Positions 394-5,359 of a stretch of DNA of 5,359 nt are shown here, piece by piece. Source of the DNA: Escherichia phage phiX174; the sequence record AF299300.1. The stretch is one strand, 5' to 3'. Each line of letters opens with the position of its first letter. The stretch's first letter is position 1. A program made the translations under genes and the position numbers. The notes beneath the pieces were generated by a model, which did no database searches, was not told where the DNA came from, and saw only the letters and a program-made list of their open reading frames with translations.

Positions 394-848
394 GTCAAGT
401 TACTGAACAATCCGTACGTTTCCAGACCGCTTTGGCCTCTATTAAGCTCATTCAGGCTTCTGCCGTTTTGGATTTAACCGAAGATGATTTCGATTTTCTG
501 ACGAGTAACAAAGTTTGGATTGCTACTGACCGCTCTCGTGCTCGTCGCTGCGTTGAGGCTTGCGTTTATGGTACGCTGGACTTTGTGGGATACCCTCGCT
601 TTCCTGCTCCTGTTGAGTTTATTGCTGCCGTCATTGCTTATTATGTTCATCCCGTCAACATTCAAACGGCCTGTCTCATCATGGAAGGCGCTGAATTTAC
701 GGAAAACATTATTAATGGCGTCGAGCGTCCGGTTAAAGCCGCTGAATTGTTCGCGCTTACCTTGCGTGTACGCGCAGGAAACACTGACGTTCTTACTGAC
801 GCAGAAGAAAACGTGCGTCAAAAATTACGTGCAGAAGGAGTGATGTAA
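390..848 (+). CDS. D: External scaffolding protein D (152 aa)
   Basis: ORF track 390..848, 152 aa, [19 protein letters not shown]...AEGVM. ATG 390 overlaps the C stop (ATGA); stop TAA 846-848 overlaps the J start (TAATG). Confidence 0.95.
   Translation: MSQVTEQSVRFQTALASIKLIQASAVLDLTEDDFDFLTSNKVWIATDRSRARRCVEACVYGTLDFVGYPRFPAPVEFIAAVIAYYVHPVNIQTACLIMEGAEFTENIINGVERPVKAAELFALTLRVRAGNTDVLTDAEENVRQKLRAEGVM
568..843 (+). CDS. E: Lysis protein E (91 aa, MraY inhibitor), embedded in D in the +1 frame
   Basis: ORF track frame 520..843; canonical start is the ATG at 568 (MVRWTLWDTLAFLLLLSLLLPSLLIMFIPSTFKRPV...), preceded by GAGG at 556-559. Hydrophobic N-terminal transmembrane segment. Stop TGA 841-843. 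Confidence 0.9.
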   Translation: MVRWTLWDTLAFLLLLSLLLPSLLIMFIPSTFKRPVSSWKALNLRKTLLMASSVRLKPLNCSRLPCVYAQETLTFLLTQKKTCVKNYVQKE

Positions 849-964
849 TGTCTAAAGGTAAAAAACGTTCTGGCGCTCGCCCTGGTCGTCCGCAGCCGTT
901 GCGAGGTACTAAAGGCAAGCGTAAAGGCGCTCGTCTTTGGTATGTAGGTGGTCAACAATTTTAA
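848..964 (+). CDS. J: DNA-binding / packaging protein J (38 aa, highly basic)
   Basis: ATG 848 with GGAG at 837-840. Translates to MSKGKKRSGARPGRPQPLRGTKGKRKGARLWYVGGQQF, stop TAA 962-964. Under 60 aa, so absent from the ORF track. Confidence 0.9.
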   Translation: MSKGKKRSGARPGRPQPLRGTKGKRKGARLWYVGGQQF

Positions 965-973
965 GGATAAATT
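965..973 (+). other. J-F intercistronic spacer, only 9 nt (GGATAAATT); carries the F Shine-Dalgarno; the hairpin expected here is absent
   Basis: J stop at 962-964 and F ATG at 974 are 9 nt apart. AAGGA at 963-967 (overlapping the J stop codon) sits 6 nt before the F ATG. No inverted repeat is present. Confidence 0.8.
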
Positions 974-2257
974 ATGTCTAATATTCAAACTGGCGCCGAG
1001 CGTATGCCGCATGACCTTTCCCATCTTGGCTTCCTTGCTGGTCAGATTGGTCGTCTTATTACCATTTCAACTACTCCGGTTATCGCTGGCGACTCCTTCG
1101 AGATGGACGCCGTTGGCGCTCTCCGTCTTTCTCCATTGCGTCGTGGCCTTGCTATTGACTCTACTGTAGACATTTTTACTTTTTATGTCCCTCATCGTCA
1201 CGTTTATGGTGAACAGTGGATTAAGTTCATGAAGGATGGTGTTAATGCCACTCCTCTCCCGACTGTTAACACTACTGGTTATATTGACCATGCCGCTTTT
1301 CTTGGCACGATTAACCCTGATACCAATAAAATCCCTAAGCATTTGTTTCAGGGTTATTTGAATATCTATAACAACTATTTTAAAGCGCCGTGGATGCCTG
1401 ACCGTACCGAGGCTAACCCTAATGAGCTTAATCAAGATGATGCTCGTTATGGTTTCCGTTGCTGCCATCTCAAAAACATTTGGACTGCTCCGCTTCCTCC
1501 TGAGACTGAGCTTTCTCGCCAAATGACGACTTCTACCACATCTATTGACATTATGGGTCTGCAAGCTGCTTATGCTAATTTGCATACTGACCAAGAACGT
1601 GATTACTTCATGCAGCGTTACCGTGATGTTATTTCTTCATTTGGAGGTAAAACCTCTTATGACGCTGACAACCGTCCTTTACTTGTCATGCGCTCTAATC
1701 TCTGGGCATCTGGCTATGATGTTGATGGAACTGACCAAACGTCGTTAGGCCAGTTTTCTGGTCGTGTTCAACAGACCTATAAACATTCTGTGCCGCGTTT
1801 CTTTGTTCCTGAGCATGGCACTATGTTTACTCTTGCGCTTGTTCGTTTTCCGCCTACTGCGACTAAAGAGATTCAGTACCTTAACGCTAAAGGTGCTTTG
1901 ACTTATACCGATATTGCTGGCGACCCTGTTTTGTATGGCAACTTGCCGCCGCGTGAAATTTCTATGAAGGATGTTTTCCGTTCTGGTGATCCGTCTAAGA
2001 AGTTTAAGATTGCTGAGGGTCAGTGGTATCGTTATGCGCCTTCGTATGTTTCTCCTGCTTATCACCTTCTTGAAGGCTTCCCATTCATTCAGGAACCGCC
2101 TTCTGGTGATTTGCAAGAACGCGTACTTATTCGCCACCATGATTATGACCAGTGTTTCCAGTCCGTTCAGTTGTTGCAGTGGAATAGTCAGGTTAAATTT
2201 AATGTGACCGTTTATCGCAATCTGCCGACCACTCGCGATTCAATCATGACTTCGTGA
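974..2257 (+). CDS. F: Major capsid protein F (427 aa)
   Basis: ORF track 974..2257, 427 aa, MSNIQTGAERMPHDLSHLGFLAGQIGRL...RDSIMTS. Recognised as the microvirus major coat protein. Confidence 0.96.
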   Translation: MSNIQTGAERMPHDLSHLGFLAGQIGRLITISTTPVIAGDSFEMDAVGALRLSPLRRGLAIDSTVDIFTFYVPHRHVYGEQWIKFMKDGVNATPLPTVNTTGYIDHAAFLGTINPDTNKIPKHLFQGYLNIYNNYFKAPWMPDRTEANPNELNQDDARYGFRCCHLKNIWTAPLPPETELSRQMTTSTTSIDIMGLQAAYANLHTDQERDYFMQRYRDVISSFGGKTSYDADNRPLLVMRSNLWASGYDVDGTDQTSLGQFSGRVQQTYKHSVPRFFVPEHGTMFTLALVRFPPTATKEIQYLNAKGALTYTDIAGDPVLYGNLPPREISMKDVFRSGDPSKKFKIAEGQWYRYAPSYVSPAYHLLEGFPFIQEPPSGDLQERVLIRHHDYDQCFQSVQLLQWNSQVKFNVTVYRNLPTTRDSIMTS

Positions 2258-2903: not shown

Positions 2904-3890
2904 ATGTTTGGTGCTATTGCTGGCGGTATTGCTTCTGCTCTTGCTGGTGGCGTCATGTCTAAATTGTTTGGAGGCGGTCAAAAAGCCGCCTCCGGTGGCA
3001 TTCAAGGTGATGTGCTTGCTACCGATAGCAATACTGTAGGCATGGGTGATGCTGGTATTAAATCTGCCATTCAAGGCTCTAATGTTCCTAACTCTGATGA
3101 GTCCGCCCCTAGTTTTGTTTCTGGTGTTATGGCTAAAGCTGGTAAAGGACTTCTTGAAGGTACGTTGCAGGCTGGCACTTCTGCCGTTTCTGATAAGTTG
3201 CTTGATTTGGTTGGACTTGGTGGCAAGTCTGCCGCTGATAAAGGAAAGGATACTCGTGATTATCTTGCTGCTGCATTTCCTGAGCTTAATGCTTGGGAGC
3301 GTGCTGGTGCTGATGCTTCCTCTGCTGGTATGGTTGACGCCGGATTTGAGAATCAAAAAGAGCTTACTAAAATGCAACTGGACAATCAGAAAGAGATTGC
3401 CGAGATGCAAGATGAGACTCAAAAAGAGATTGCTGGCATTCAGTCGGCGACTTCACGCCAGAATACGAAAGACCAGGTATATGCACAAAATGAGATGCTT
3501 GCTTATCAACAGAAGGAGTCTACTGCTCGCGTTGCGTCTATTATGGAAAACACCAATCTTTCCAAGCAACAGCAGGTTTCCGAGATTATGCGCCAAATGC
3601 TTACTCAAGCTCAAACGGCTGGTCAGTATTTTACCAATGACCAAATCAAAGAAATGACTCGCAAGGTTAGTGCTGAGGTTGACTTAGTTCATCAGCAAAC
3701 GCAGAATCAGCGGTATGGCTCTTCTCATATTGGCGCTACTGCAAAGGATATTTCTAATGTCGTCACTGATGCTGCTTCTGGTGTGGTTGATATTTTTCAT
3801 GGTATTGATAAAGCTGTTGCCGATACTTGGAACAATTTCTGGAAAGACGGTAAAGCTGATGGTATTGGCTCTAATTTGTCTAGGAAATAA
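2904..3890 (+). CDS. H: Minor spike / DNA pilot protein H (328 aa)
   Basis: ORF track 2904..3890, 328 aa, [16 protein letters not shown]...[16 protein letters not shown] precedes the ATG. Gly/Ala-rich N-terminus and Gln-rich coiled-coil region typical of H. Confidence 0.95.
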
Positions 3891-3899
3891 CCGTCAGGA

Positions 3900-3935
3900 T
3901 TGACACCCTCCCAATTGTATGTTTTCATGCCTCCA
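3900..3935 (+). promoter_or_regulatory. Candidate sigma70 promoter PA in the H-A intergenic region
   Basis: TTGACA at 3900-3905, 17-nt spacer, TTTCAT at 3923-3928 (weak -10); predicted start around 3935, inside the downstream hairpin. Confidence 0.45.
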
Positions 3936-3953: not shown

Positions 3954-5359
3954 ATGGTTCGTTCTTATTACCCTTCTGAATGTCACGCTGATTATTTTGA
4001 CTTTGAGCGTATCGAGGCTCTTAAACCTGCTATTGAGGCTTGTGGCATTTCTACTCTTTCTCAATCCCCAATGCTTGGCTTCCATAAGCAGATGGATAAC
4101 CGCATCAAGCTCTTGGAAGAGATTCTGTCTTTTCGTATGCAGGGCGTTGAGTTCGATAATGGTGATATGTATGTTGACGGCCATAAGGCTGCTTCTGACG
4201 TTCGTGATGAGTTTGTATCTGTTACTGAGAAGTTAATGGATGAATTGGCACAATGCTACAATGTGCTCCCCCAACTTGATATTAATAACACTATAGACCA
4301 CCGCCCCGAAGGGGACGAAAAATGGTTTTTAGAGAACGAGAAGACGGTTACGCAGTTTTGCCGCAAGCTGGCTGCTGAACGCCCTCTTAAGGATATTCGC
4401 GATGAGTATAATTACCCCAAAAAGAAAGGTATTAAGGATGAGTGTTCAAGATTGCTGGAGGCCTCCACTATGAAATCGCGTAGAGGCTTTACTATTCAGC
4501 GTTTGATGAATGCAATGCGACAGGCTCATGCTGATGGTTGGTTTATCGTTTTTGACACTCTCACGTTGGCTGACGACCGATTAGAGGCGTTTTATGATAA
4601 TCCCAATGCTTTGCGTGACTATTTTCGTGATATTGGTCGTATGGTTCTTGCTGCCGAGGGTCGCAAGGCTAATGATTCACACGCCGACTGCTATCAGTAT
4701 TTTTGTGTGCCTGAGTATGGTACAGCTAATGGCCGTCTTCATTTCCATGCGGTGCATTTTATGCGGACACTTCCTACGGGTAGCGTTGACCCTAATTTTG
4801 GTCGTCGGGTACGCAATCGCCGCCAGTTAAATAGCTTGCAAAATACGTGGCCTTATGGTTACAGTATGCCCATCGCAGTTCGCTACACGCAGGACGCTTT
4901 TTCACGTTCTGGTTGGTTGTGGCCTGTTGATGCTAAAGGTGAGCCGCTTAAAGCTACCAGTTATATGGCTGTTGGTTTCTATGTGGCTAAATACGTTAAC
5001 AAAAAGTCAGATATGGACCTTGCTGCTAAAGGTCTAGGAGCTAAAGAATGGAACAACTCACTAAAAACCAAGCTGTCGCTACTTCCCAAGAAGCTGTTCA
5101 GAATCAGAATGAGCCGCAACTTCGGGATGAAAATGCTCACAATGACAAATCTGTCCACGGAGTGCTTAATCCAACTTACCAAGCTGGGTTACGACGCGAC
5201 GCCGTTCAACCAGATATTGAAGCAGAACGCAAAAAGAGAGATGAGATTGAGGCTGGGAAAAGTTACTGTAGCCGACGTTTTGGCGGCGCAACCTGTGACG
5301 ACAAATCTGCTCAAATTTATGCGCGCTTCGATAAAAATGATTGGCGTATCCAACCTGCA
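3954..5359 (+). CDS. A: Replication initiation protein A (rolling-circle endonuclease), N-terminal 468 codons; ORF continues at position 1 and ends at 136 (513 aa in total)
   Basis: ATG 3954 (MVRSYYPSECHADYFDFERIEALK...). The frame is open to the window end, which is why the ORF track does not list it. Contains the HFHAVHF and YVAKYVNKKSD motifs typical of a rolling-circle initiator. Confidence 0.93.
   Translation, partial: MVRSYYPSECHADYFDFERIEALKPAIEACGISTLSQSPMLGFHKQMDNRIKLLEEILSFRMQGVEFDNGDMYVDGHKAASDVRDEFVSVTEKLMDELAQCYNVLPQLDINNTIDHRPEGDEKWFLENEKTVTQFCRKLAAERPLKDIRDEYNYPKKKGIKDECSRLLEASTMKSRRGFTIQRLMNAMRQAHADGWFIVFDTLTLADDRLEAFYDNPNALRDYFRDIGRMVLAAEGRKANDSHADCYQYFCVPEYGTANGRLHFHAVHFMRTLPTGSVDPNFGRRVRNRRQLNSLQNTWPYGYSMPIAVRYTQDAFSRSGWLWPVDAKGEPLKATSYMAVGFYVAKYVNKKSDMDLAAKGLGAKEWNNSLKTKLSLLPKKLFRIRMSRNFGMKMLTMTNLSTECLIQLTKLGYDATPFNQILKQNAKREMRLRLGKVTVADVLAAQPVTTNLLKFMRASIKMIGVSNL
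4272..4301 (+). other. Origin of viral-strand (rolling-circle) replication: conserved 30-nt A-protein recognition and nick sequence inside gene A
   Basis: CAACTTGATATTAATAACACTATAGACCAC at 4272-4301. The A-protein nick falls between G4278 and A4279 (CTTG/ATATT). Followed by the small palindrome CCCCGAAGGGG. Confidence 0.8.
4470..5359 (+). CDS. A*: Protein A* (in-frame internal initiation within A), N-terminal part; continues at 1..136
   Basis: ATG 4470 is in the A frame and preceded by GGAGG at 4457-4461 with 8-nt spacing. Translates to MKSRRGFTIQRLMNAMRQAHADGWF... Confidence 0.75.
   Translation, partial: MKSRRGFTIQRLMNAMRQAHADGWFIVFDTLTLADDRLEAFYDNPNALRDYFRDIGRMVLAAEGRKANDSHADCYQYFCVPEYGTANGRLHFHAVHFMRTLPTGSVDPNFGRRVRNRRQLNSLQNTWPYGYSMPIAVRYTQDAFSRSGWLWPVDAKGEPLKATSYMAVGFYVAKYVNKKSDMDLAAKGLGAKEWNNSLKTKLSLLPKKLFRIRMSRNFGMKMLTMTNLSTECLIQLTKLGYDATPFNQILKQNAKREMRLRLGKVTVADVLAAQPVTTNLLKFMRASIKMIGVSNL
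4836..4872 (+). promoter_or_regulatory. Candidate promoter PB inside gene A, upstream of B
   Basis: TTGCAA at 4836-4841 with possible -10 TTACAG/TACAGT at 4859-4865. Weak match; exact position uncertain. Confidence 0.3.
5048..5359 (+). CDS. B: Internal scaffolding protein B, N-terminal 104 codons; continues at 1..51 (120 aa in total)
   Basis: ATG 5048 preceded by AGGAG at 5036-5040 with 7-nt spacing. Translates to MEQLTKNQAVATSQEAVQNQNEPQLRDENAHNDKSVHGVLNPTYQAGLRRDAVQPDIEAERKKRDEIEAGKSYCSRRFGGATCDDKSAQIYARFDKNDWRIQPA. Frame open to the window end, different frame from A. Confidence 0.92.
   Translation, partial: MEQLTKNQAVATSQEAVQNQNEPQLRDENAHNDKSVHGVLNPTYQAGLRRDAVQPDIEAERKKRDEIEAGKSYCSRRFGGATCDDKSAQIYARFDKNDWRIQPA

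What the first reader, a model, noticed from the sequence alone, without database searches (positions are those of the whole stretch)
962..976. 27-nt deletion removing the J-F intercistronic hairpin (terminator after J)
The J stop (962-964) and F start (974) are only 9 nt apart (GGATAAATT). In the phiX174 reference as I recall it, J ends at 964 and F begins at 1001, with a 36-nt spacer holding a GC-rich palindrome (roughly CAGGGGCTTCGGCCCC) that acts as the terminator after J and as a 3' mRNA-stabilising hairpin. Every gene after this point sits exactly 27 nt earlier than the reference coordinates I recall, genes before it are unshifted, and the window is 5359 nt against 5386. That fits a single clean 27-nt deletion with its junction at 964/965. 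The F Shine-Dalgarno (AAGGA, 963-967) is kept and now overlaps the J stop codon. Expected consequences are loss of termination after J, altered J:F expression ratio and transcript stability, and possible translational coupling of F to J. This may be a laboratory or engineered variant, or a natural deletion.
Basis: partly seen in the sequence, partly recalled or inferred. Interest (0 to 1): 0.75.

Follow-up and report, generated by a model that had tools for sequence, protein, structure and literature searches.

The report
Known lab-evolved phiX174 J-F deletion
The window is a laboratory-evolved phiX174 genome with a real 27-base deletion that removes the hairpin terminator between genes J and F; this same deletion is already published and has arisen repeatedly in evolution experiments, so the finding is correct but not new.

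Summary
The window is a complete 5359-nt phiX174 genome. It differs from the 5386-nt reference and from the Bull/Wichman ancestor by a single 27-nt gap (reference 965-991, equally 964-990). Everything else is collinear. The deleted segment holds the whole T_J element: a 6-bp GC stem with a C(UUCG)G tetraloop (-11.8 kcal/mol) and its weak U-tail. It also holds the only ACTTGA origin-like motif outside the replication origin. J's stop and F's start are now 9 nt apart, and the F Shine-Dalgarno (UAAGGA) includes J's stop codon.

This is not new. "Deletion 965-991" is listed by Kula et al. 2018 as arising in three of their lines and as present in 12 GenBank genomes. I found the identical junction in 14 records, with at least seven apparent independent gains in two laboratories. 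The window is almost certainly GenBank AF299300 (isolate CG).

All natural relatives examined keep the hairpin, so it is conserved in nature but repeatedly lost in culture. The likely effect is unimpeded read-through from D/J into F-G-H and loss of the stable J-terminated mRNAs. This effect and its benefit are inferred, not measured.

The parts
848..964 (+). Gene J (DNA-binding core protein), 38 aa, unchanged from the ancestor
   Evidence: ORF list. The translation is identical to Anc. Annotated as J in HM775309, which has the same coordinates.
962..964 (+). J stop codon TAA, now the first three bases of the F Shine-Dalgarno UAAGGA
   Evidence: Sequence; alignment.
963..965 (+). Deletion junction. 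27 nt (reference 964-990 or 965-991; the A at window 964 may derive from A964 or A991) are missing between window 963/964 or 964/965.
   Evidence: MAFFT alignments. A junction-specific 40-mer finds 11 further records.
962..967 (+). F ribosome-binding site UAAGGA (wild type: UGAGGA). Predicted pairing to the 16S 3' end is -5.9 kcal/mol against -6.0 in the ancestor.
   Evidence: RNAduplex computation. AAGGAT is also the conserved motif upstream of F in G4-, ID52- and alpha3-like phages.
965..973 (+). Residual 9-nt J-F spacer GGATAAATT (36 nt in wild-type phiX174; 34-45 nt in six natural relatives)
974..2257 (+). Gene F (major capsid protein), 427 aa, with one substitution versus the ancestor (S340P). 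It is the first gene downstream of the lost terminator.

Best explanation
The window is an experimentally evolved phiX174 isolate, almost certainly GenBank AF299300 'isolate CG' of the Bull/Wichman series. It carries the previously described recurrent deletion 965-991. The deletion excises the entire T_J element, meaning the GC stem with its C(UUCG)G tetraloop and the weak U-tail, which lies between J's stop codon and F's Shine-Dalgarno. These points are shown: the deletion, the loss of the only stable hairpin in the spacer, the intact J and F reading frames, the retained SD, and the recurrence in independent lines. What follows is inferred. Without T_J, RNA polymerase coming from P_B and P_D no longer stops after J, so F, G and H mRNA should rise relative to D and J. 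From the measured T_J efficiencies this would be about 1.25-1.7-fold at 37 C and up to 3-fold at 42 C. The unusually stable short mRNAs that end at the hairpin should disappear. J and F also become a close-coupled pair, with stop and start 9 nt apart. More capsid and spike expression per transcript is the most likely reason the allele sweeps in culture. That reason fits high temperature, where T_J over-terminates, and backgrounds where F translation has been weakened by codon deoptimisation. The deletion probably arises by replication slippage across the hairpin between the imperfect 4-nt repeats TTAA (961-964) and TTGA (988-991), which lie exactly 27 nt apart.
For: Identity and deletion. The window is one step from isolate C (6 substitutions plus the deletion) and is ancestral to CGGlo (4 substitutions) and CGGhi (7 substitutions). 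AF299300 'CG' is the only series member absent from the collection. Hairpin lost. T_J location and strength: Logel & Jaschke, 20-40% block; Zhao et al. 2012, read-through 68% at 37 C and 34% at 42 C, and disruption of T_J speeds decay of the short transcripts. Published allele: Kula et al. 2018, 'Deletion 965-991 ... present in 12 complete genomes', arising at transfers 27, 29 and 30 in lines E2-E4. Recurrence: the deletion was gained in C->window, CMMlo->CMMloC, CMMhi->CMMhiC and S1->SC1 and in E2-E4. Link to F expression: 3 of 4 E lines, which carry a deoptimised gene-F segment, gained it, whereas the J-deoptimised lines did not. An RNA-level role for the hairpin: UNCG tetraloop hairpins are conserved in 6 of 7 natural Bullavirinae from three genera, and the RNA hairpin is -11.8 kcal/mol against -6.7 as DNA.
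Against: No accessible study measured transcripts, proteins or fitness for this allele alone, so the benefit is inferred. Zhao et al. saw no protein-level change matching the mRNA differences at 42 C. Two other recurrent adaptive changes lie in the same tail. One of them, C987T, is expected to strengthen the U-tract, the opposite direction to deleting the terminator. [quoted passage not shown] The S line, which also has deoptimised F codons, did not acquire it. The staggered appearance in E2, E3 and E4, and the shared laboratory for the AF series, leave cross-contamination plus recombination formally possible for some of the 'independent' gains. Flanking lineage markers argue against this, for example 1008G only 17 nt downstream in the CMM lines.
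Confidence: 0.75

Rival explanations
1. The selected effect is at the DNA level. The deletion removes the only extra-origin ACTTG|A site, where gene A/A* protein can nick viral single-stranded DNA, and so protects progeny genomes or replication intermediates. The same protein might even create the deletion, because the right-hand breakpoint (G990|A991) is exactly the position homologous to the origin nick (G4305|A4306).
For: ACTTGA occurs only at 986 and at the origin (4301) on the + strand. Brown et al. 2013 state that this is an extra-origin A/A* cleavage site and that the recurrent substitutions A986G and C987T alter its conserved nucleotides. All three recurrent changes (A986G, C987T, deletion) destroy the motif, whereas their predicted effects on termination differ. 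The motif is specific to the phiX174 clade and absent from the G4-, ID52- and alpha3-like spacers.
Against: S1 already carried A986G, so the motif was destroyed, yet its descendant SC1 still fixed the 27-nt deletion. Removing the motif therefore cannot be the whole benefit. A point mutation is far more accessible than one specific 27-nt deletion. Overall similarity to the 30-nt origin is only 13/30, which is not above background. A two-cut-and-join reaction by A/A* giving a 27-nt excision is not a known activity; this last point rests on my own knowledge.
Confidence: 0.15
2. The benefit is translational. Bringing J's stop within 9 nt of F's AUG, and fusing it to the SD, couples F translation to the heavily translated J, which enforces the 1:1 J:F stoichiometry of the virion.
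For: The stop-to-start distance falls from 36 to 9 nt and the SD overlaps the stop. D and J are already coupled by an overlapping TAATG at 846-850. F and J are both present at 60 copies per virion (established phiX174 structure, from my own knowledge). Three of the four E lines, which carry a codon-deoptimised segment in gene F, gained the deletion.
Against: No natural Bullavirinae genome examined uses a short spacer; all have 34-45 nt. Predicted SD strength and RBS opening energy are essentially unchanged. There is no experimental evidence for coupling.
Confidence: 0.15
3. The deletion is neutral or nearly so. It spreads because it is a mutational hotspot that hitch-hikes with beneficial substitutions such as H A17V, or it reflects general streamlining of dispensable intergenic DNA in the laboratory.
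For: The deletion co-occurs with H C2980T (A17V) in the window lineage, in CMMhiC and in E2-E4. Sister lines also lost 15 or 20 nt of the F-G spacer. Only 19% of single-nucleotide changes in non-coding regions, and 14.6% of those in terminators, reduce fitness.
Against: Seven fixations in different backgrounds, including two without A17V (CMMloC, SC1), are hard to explain by hitch-hiking. A 0.5% shorter genome is a negligible replication advantage. The hairpin is conserved across three genera, so it is not junk.
Confidence: 0.1
4. The gap is a sequencing or assembly artefact (for example a GC-hairpin compression), or it is a deliberately engineered J-F mutant.
For: GC-rich hairpins can cause Sanger compressions. 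Engineered J-F mutants were made in 1980 by Muller and Wells (from memory; the paper is not held).
Against: Exactly 27 nt are missing with identical ends in 14 records from two laboratories. One of those laboratories followed the deletion by PCR product size. The window's position in a serial-passage genealogy indicates a spontaneous origin.
Confidence: 0.02

Closest known systems
phiX174 'Deletion 965-991' of experimental-evolution lines (Kula et al. 2018, Sci Rep 8:8350, lines E2-E4, HM775309-11; Crill/Wichman/Bull isolates SC1, SCS1, SCSC1, AF176028/30/32; AF2993xx series)
   Same: The junction is identical, base for base, and sits in the same phiX174 backbone. The window also shares H A17V and P64S with the Kula lines.
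   Different: Nothing differs at the locus. The window is simply another, earlier member of one of these lineages, with its own set of 10 substitutions.
T_J, the rho-independent terminator and mRNA-stabilising hairpin of phiX174 and G4 (Hayashi, Hayashi & Muller 1983, as cited; Logel & Jaschke 2020)
   Same: This is the element that occupies the deleted 27 nt in the wild type.
   Different: The window lacks it entirely. Nothing comparable replaces it, and there is no terminator-like site at the junction.
Engineered J-F intercistronic deletion and insertion mutants of phiX174 (Muller & Wells 1980, J Mol Biol 141; recalled from memory, paper not held)
   Same: They showed that the J-F spacer tolerates alteration and that the phage stays viable. 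They were used to show the hairpin's role in mRNA stability.
   Different: Those mutants were built in vitro, whereas this allele arose spontaneously and was selected. I could not check whether any of them has the same end points.
F-G intergenic deletions in sister lines (reference 2288-2307 in CGGlo; 2293-2307 in CMMhi)
   Same: These are also short deletions of intergenic DNA with 1-2 nt of microhomology, fixed during the same laboratory passages.
   Different: They lie in a different spacer, have variable left ends, and leave the T_F / complementary-strand origin hairpin intact. They are not present in the window.

Membership tests
Published phiX174 allele 'deletion 965-991' | phiX174 backbone, collinear with the reference apart from the deletion | tested here: met
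   99.7-99.9% identity over the full length, with a single gap.
Published phiX174 allele 'deletion 965-991' | Exactly 27 nt missing, with junction TTTTA|AGGAT | tested here: met
   Identical columns in the window, HM775309, the AF2993xx records and AF176028. The 40-mer across the junction matches 11 records at 100%.
Published phiX174 allele 'deletion 965-991' | Origin by laboratory passage rather than from nature | tested here: met
   The window is intermediate between isolate C and CGGlo/CGGhi. All junction-bearing records are experimental isolates. The natural isolate WA4 and six other natural genomes keep the hairpin. The junction is absent from metagenome contigs, though the wild-type control found only 3 contigs.
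Intrinsic (rho-independent) terminator, applied to the wild-type J-F element that was lost | GC-rich stem-loop | tested here: met
   A 6-bp stem with 5 G-C pairs and a UUCG loop, -11.8 kcal/mol in the reference. It is absent from the window.
Intrinsic (rho-independent) terminator, applied to the wild-type J-F element that was lost | U-rich tract immediately 3' of the stem | tested here: inconclusive
   The tail UUACUUGA has only 4 U in 8, and the consensus scan did not call it. This fits the low measured efficiency.
Intrinsic (rho-independent) terminator, applied to the wild-type J-F element that was lost | Measured drop in transcription across the site | not testable with these tools
   From the literature only: a 20-40% block and 32% or 66% termination at 37 or 42 C.
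Translationally coupled gene pair (J-F in the window) | Stop and start codons overlap or lie within a few nucleotides, with the SD inside or at the end of the upstream gene | tested here: met
   The stop at 962-964 and the AUG at 974 are 9 nt apart, and the SD UAAGGA at 962-967 includes the stop.
Translationally coupled gene pair (J-F in the window) | Downstream translation depends on upstream translation | not testable with these tools
   This needs a J nonsense mutant or a reporter assay.
Gene A protein origin-like cleavage site (the wild-type element that was lost) | Core ACTTG|A as at the origin nick | tested here: met
   Reference 986-991 is ACTTGA, the only copy besides the origin at 4301. 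It is removed in the window.
Gene A protein origin-like cleavage site (the wild-type element that was lost) | Similarity to the full 30-nt origin recognition sequence | tested here: not met
   13 of 30 positions match. Other places in the genome reach 16-17 of 30.

The most novel reading that the evidence does not exclude
The evidence does not exclude a DNA-level reading. In it, the exact recurrence of this junction is caused or selected by the phage's own initiator nuclease. The right breakpoint coincides with the A/A* nick position in the sole pseudo-origin ACTTG|A. All three recurrent changes in this spacer (A986G, C987T, the deletion) destroy that motif. Laboratory phiX174 would then be repeatedly eliminating a self-nicking site rather than tuning transcription.
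Probability: 0.12. Interest if true: 0.45.

Novelty: already known. Interest (0 to 1): 0.15.

Why it matters
The finding correctly identifies this genome as a laboratory-adapted phiX174 and shows what was lost. The element is conserved across three genera of natural microviruses yet is repeatedly discarded in culture. That contrast makes it a clean test case for what T_J is for, whether transcript ratio, mRNA stability or protection from the A protein. However, the allele has been in GenBank since about 2000 and is listed in a 2018 paper, so it adds no new biology. The one open point is that its phenotypic effect seems never to have been measured in isolation.

Tried and rejected
- **Literature search on '965-991':** it returned only unrelated page ranges.
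- **Primary papers not held:** I could not read Bull 1997, Crill 2000, Wichman 2000 and 2005, Hayashi 1983 or van Mansfeld 1986. What they say is taken only from papers that cite them, or from memory, and is flagged as such.
- **Accession and isolate-name searches:** searches for AF2993xx accessions or 'CGGhi' found no paper. The experiment behind the C/G/M/hi/lo names therefore remains unidentified.
- **Rfam:** no family matches the wild-type J-F region.
- **Consensus terminator scan:** it does not call T_J even in the reference, because the U-tail is weak. It therefore could not be used to show 'loss' of a terminator, and I relied on folding and the literature instead.
- **RBS change as the main effect:** rejected. 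SD pairing is -6.0 vs -5.9 kcal/mol, and the RBS opening energy differs by less than 1 kcal/mol with a sign that depends on context.
- **Simple slippage between perfect direct repeats:** rejected. The best flanking repeats, TTAATTG and TTACTTG, are 23 nt apart, not 27. At the true 27-nt register there is only TTAA/TTGA, with 1 nt of perfect microhomology.
- **Environmental searches for the junction:** both were negative, but the controls show phiX174 is nearly absent from those collections (0 and 3 wild-type hits). The negative result therefore carries little weight.

Full report
**1. What the window is**

A megablast of the whole window against 50,697 phage records gives full-length matches at 99.6-99.9% identity to phiX174 genomes. 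Most are 5386 nt and align in two pieces. A few are 5359 nt and align in one piece. The window is therefore a complete phiX174 genome that is 27 nt short.

**2. Checking the observation**

- The sequence reads ...CAACAATTTTAAGGATAAATTATGTCT.... J's stop TAA is at 962-964, a 9-nt spacer GGATAAATT follows, and F's ATG is at 974.
- The ORF table puts J at 848-964, F at 974-2257 and H at 2904-3890. The reference annotation has J at 848-964, F at 1001-2284, G at 2395-2922 and H at 2931-3917.
- A MAFFT alignment with NC_001422, the Bull/Wichman ancestor AF176034, and isolates C and CGGhi has exactly one gap in the window, at reference 964-990. Because A964 = A991, this is the same event as "965-991".
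- The missing bases are TTGCAGGGGCTTCGGCCCCTTACTTGA.

**3. What was removed**

- As RNA, the reference J-F spacer folds into one hairpin: A969-U984, six pairs (five of them G-C), closed by a C(UUCG)G tetraloop. Its energy is -11.8 kcal/mol as RNA and only -6.7 with DNA parameters.
- The tail after the stem is UUACUUGA. With four U in eight it fails the simple terminator consensus scan even in the reference. This fits the literature's description of T_J as a leaky terminator:
  - it blocks 20-40% of transcription by RNA-seq (Logel & Jaschke);
  - read-through is 68% at 37 C but only 34% at 42 C by qPCR (Zhao et al. 2012).
- Zhao et al. also summarise Hayashi's work: transcripts ending at T_J are the most stable phiX174 mRNAs, and disrupting the T_J structure accelerates their decay.
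- The same 27 nt contain ACTTGA (986-991). On the viral strand this hexamer occurs only here and at the origin nick site, 4301.
- Brown et al. [quoted passage not shown] They note that the recurrent adaptive substitutions A986G and C987T fall in it.
- In the window, the region 940-988 has no significant structure (-2 kcal/mol, z = +1.2). No terminator-like site is created at the junction.

**4. What was kept**

- J's protein is unchanged, and F has one substitution, S340P.
- The F Shine-Dalgarno changes from UGAGGA to UAAGGA, so J's stop codon now forms its 5' end.
- Predicted pairing with the 16S 3' end is the same (-6.0 vs -5.9 kcal/mol). The energy needed to open the RBS differs by less than 1 kcal/mol, with a sign that depends on the context folded.
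- I therefore do not expect a change in the intrinsic strength of F's initiation site.
- The geometry does change. The stop-to-start distance falls from 36 to 9 nt, so a ribosome terminating on J sits on F's RBS. D and J are already joined by an overlapping TAATG at 846-850.

**5. Provenance**

- The window differs from isolate C (AF299302, 5386 nt) by six substitutions plus the deletion, from CGGlo (AF299303) by four substitutions, and from CGGhi (AF299304) by seven.
- At every site where the window differs from C, CGGhi has the window's base. The small distance to CGGlo points the same way, so the window looks like the common parent of both.
- The table of GenBank genomes in Kula et al. 2018 lists the series AF299300-AF299314. 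It names AF299300 as "isolate CG".
- AF299300 is the only member I requested that is absent from the searchable collection.
- The window is therefore almost certainly AF299300. I could not find the paper describing the series, so the meaning of C/G/M and hi/lo is unknown to me.

**6. The deletion is already known and recurrent**

- Kula et al. [quoted passage not shown] It was first detected by PCR at transfers 27, 29 and 30.
[quoted passage not shown] Their Table S4 lists it as "Deletion 965-991, present in 12 complete genomes".
- A 40-mer centred on the junction can only match deletion-bearing records. It finds AF299304, 07, 09, 10 and 14, AF176028, 30 and 32, and HM775309-11.
- AF299303, 311 and 312 also carry the deletion, but have T959C nearby and were missed by that search.
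- Parent-offspring comparisons show separate gains in C->window, CMMlo->CMMloC, CMMhi->CMMhiC and S1->SC1. With the three Kula lines this makes seven apparent origins in two laboratories.
- The CMM derivatives keep their own lineage markers close to the junction (1008G, 1304C, and the 3-nt H deletion at 3007-3009). This argues against simple contamination, although recombination with a contaminant cannot be formally excluded.

**7. Nature versus the laboratory**

- I read the J-F spacer in a natural phiX-like isolate (WA4), three Gequatrovirus genomes (G4, ID204, ID52) and two Alphatrevirus genomes (WA45, NC35).
- All have spacers of 34-45 nt with a GC hairpin followed by AAGGAT. Five have a UUCG loop and one has UACG; G4 has a larger loop.
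- The flanking genes are only about 70% identical to phiX174. The hairpin, with an RNA-specific UNCG loop, is therefore under purifying selection in nature.
- ACTTGA, by contrast, is confined to the phiX174 clade.
- No natural record carries the deletion.
- Scans of viral and metagenome contigs for the junction were negative. The wild-type control found only 0 and 3 contigs, so this adds little.

**8. How it most likely works**

- Shown: loss of the hairpin and tail, retained coding and SD, and recurrence.
- Inferred: transcription from P_B and P_D now runs into F-G-H without the 20-66% loss at T_J, and the stable D-J-terminated messages disappear.
- Two observations make higher F-G-H expression the most plausible benefit:
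  - T_J becomes twice as efficient at 42 C. From memory, the Bull/Wichman/Crill chemostats ran at elevated temperature.
  - In the Kula experiment at 37 C, three of the four E lines gained the deletion. Those lines carry a codon-deoptimised segment in gene F, whereas the J-deoptimised lines did not gain it.
- Against this reading:
  - the S line, also F-deoptimised, did not gain it;
  - C987T, which should strengthen the U-tract, is also recurrently selected;
  - Zhao et al. saw no matching protein-level change;
  - nobody appears to have measured this allele alone.

**9. Rivals**

- **(a) Removal of the A/A* pseudo-origin site.**
  - For: all three recurrent changes destroy ACTTGA, and the right breakpoint G990|A991 matches the origin nick position.
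  - Against: S1 already had A986G, yet SC1 still fixed the deletion. The 30-mer similarity to the origin is at background level (13/30).
- **(b) Translational coupling of F to J.** The geometry fits but nothing tests it. No natural relative uses a short spacer.
- **(c) Hitch-hiking or streamlining.**
  - For: the co-occurrence with H A17V noted by Kula holds for the window lineage, CMMhiC and E2-E4.
  - Against: it does not hold for CMMloC or SC1.
- **(d) Artefact or engineering.** This is excluded in practice.

**10. Origin of the mutation**

At the 27-nt register the flanks are TTAA (961-964) and TTGA (988-991), which bracket the hairpin 4 and 3 nt from its base. A nascent viral strand ending in ...TTAA could re-pair across the extruded hairpin to the complement of TTGA and continue. 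That would give exactly the observed TTTTAA|GGAT. This is the classical hairpin-assisted slippage model and is inference only. With population sizes of 10^8 or more, selection for the largest deletion that still spares J's stop and F's SD would also explain why the same junction wins each time.

**11. Verdict**

The finding is real and its interpretation is essentially right. It is also already known: a published, recurrent, laboratory-selected allele of the best-studied microvirus. Novelty is "already known" and interest is low. What remains is a modest open question: which of the functions packed into these 27 nt is being selected against.

Noticed in passing
window 2953, 3028, 3093, 3102, 3127, 3411 (gene H); also 756, 1991, 2677, 4778: Six of the ten substitutions relative to the ancestor AF176034 are missense changes in the pilot protein H: A17V, N42S, P64S, A67S, A75V and N170D. 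The others are D F123L, F S340P, G P104S and a silent change in A. H A17V and P64S also arose repeatedly in the unrelated Kula et al. lines (their A16V and P63S).
   Followed up: partly
L009-L011 (AF299303/311/312), reference 2288-2307; L019/L020 (AF299306/307), reference 2293-2307; the window equivalent 2261-2280 is intact: Descendant and sister isolates lost a further 20 or 15 nt of the F-G spacer. The two deletions have different left ends but the same right end, at 2307, immediately before the T_F / complementary-strand-origin hairpin. This suggests a second recurrent intergenic deletion hotspot in laboratory lines.
   Followed up: partly
L001 986-991 and 4301-4306 (the first site is deleted in the window): ACTTGA occurs on the viral strand only at the replication origin and in the J-F tail. 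The right end of the deletion (G990|A991) is exactly the position homologous to the gene A protein nick. S1 (L022) carries A986G in this motif before its descendant SC1 lost the whole segment.
   Followed up: partly
L012-L017 J-F spacers (G4, WA45, ID204, ID52, WA4, NC35): The J-F hairpin keeps a UNCG-type tetraloop (UUCG in five genomes, UACG in one) across three genera, although the flanking genes are only about 70% identical. This points to an RNA-level function rather than a DNA-level one.
   Followed up: partly
window 918-931 (+), inside gene J: A terminator-like hairpin AGCGTAAAGGCGCT is followed by CGTCTTTGGT. It is present in both the window and the reference. The number of such hits in the genome equals the shuffled expectation, so it is probably chance.
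   Followed up: no
window 846-850: The D stop and J start overlap as TAATG. With the deletion, D, J and F form a chain of closely spaced cistrons.
   Followed up: no
L008, L018-L021 (CM lineage), reference 3007-3009: There is an in-frame 3-nt deletion in gene H, carried by all CM-derived isolates. It is absent from the window.
   Followed up: no
collections viral contigs and metagenome contigs: An exact 37-mer of the wild-type phiX174 J-F region is absent from viral contigs and present in only 3 metagenome contigs (L024-L026). phiX174 has evidently been filtered out of these collections, so negative searches there say little.
   Followed up: yes
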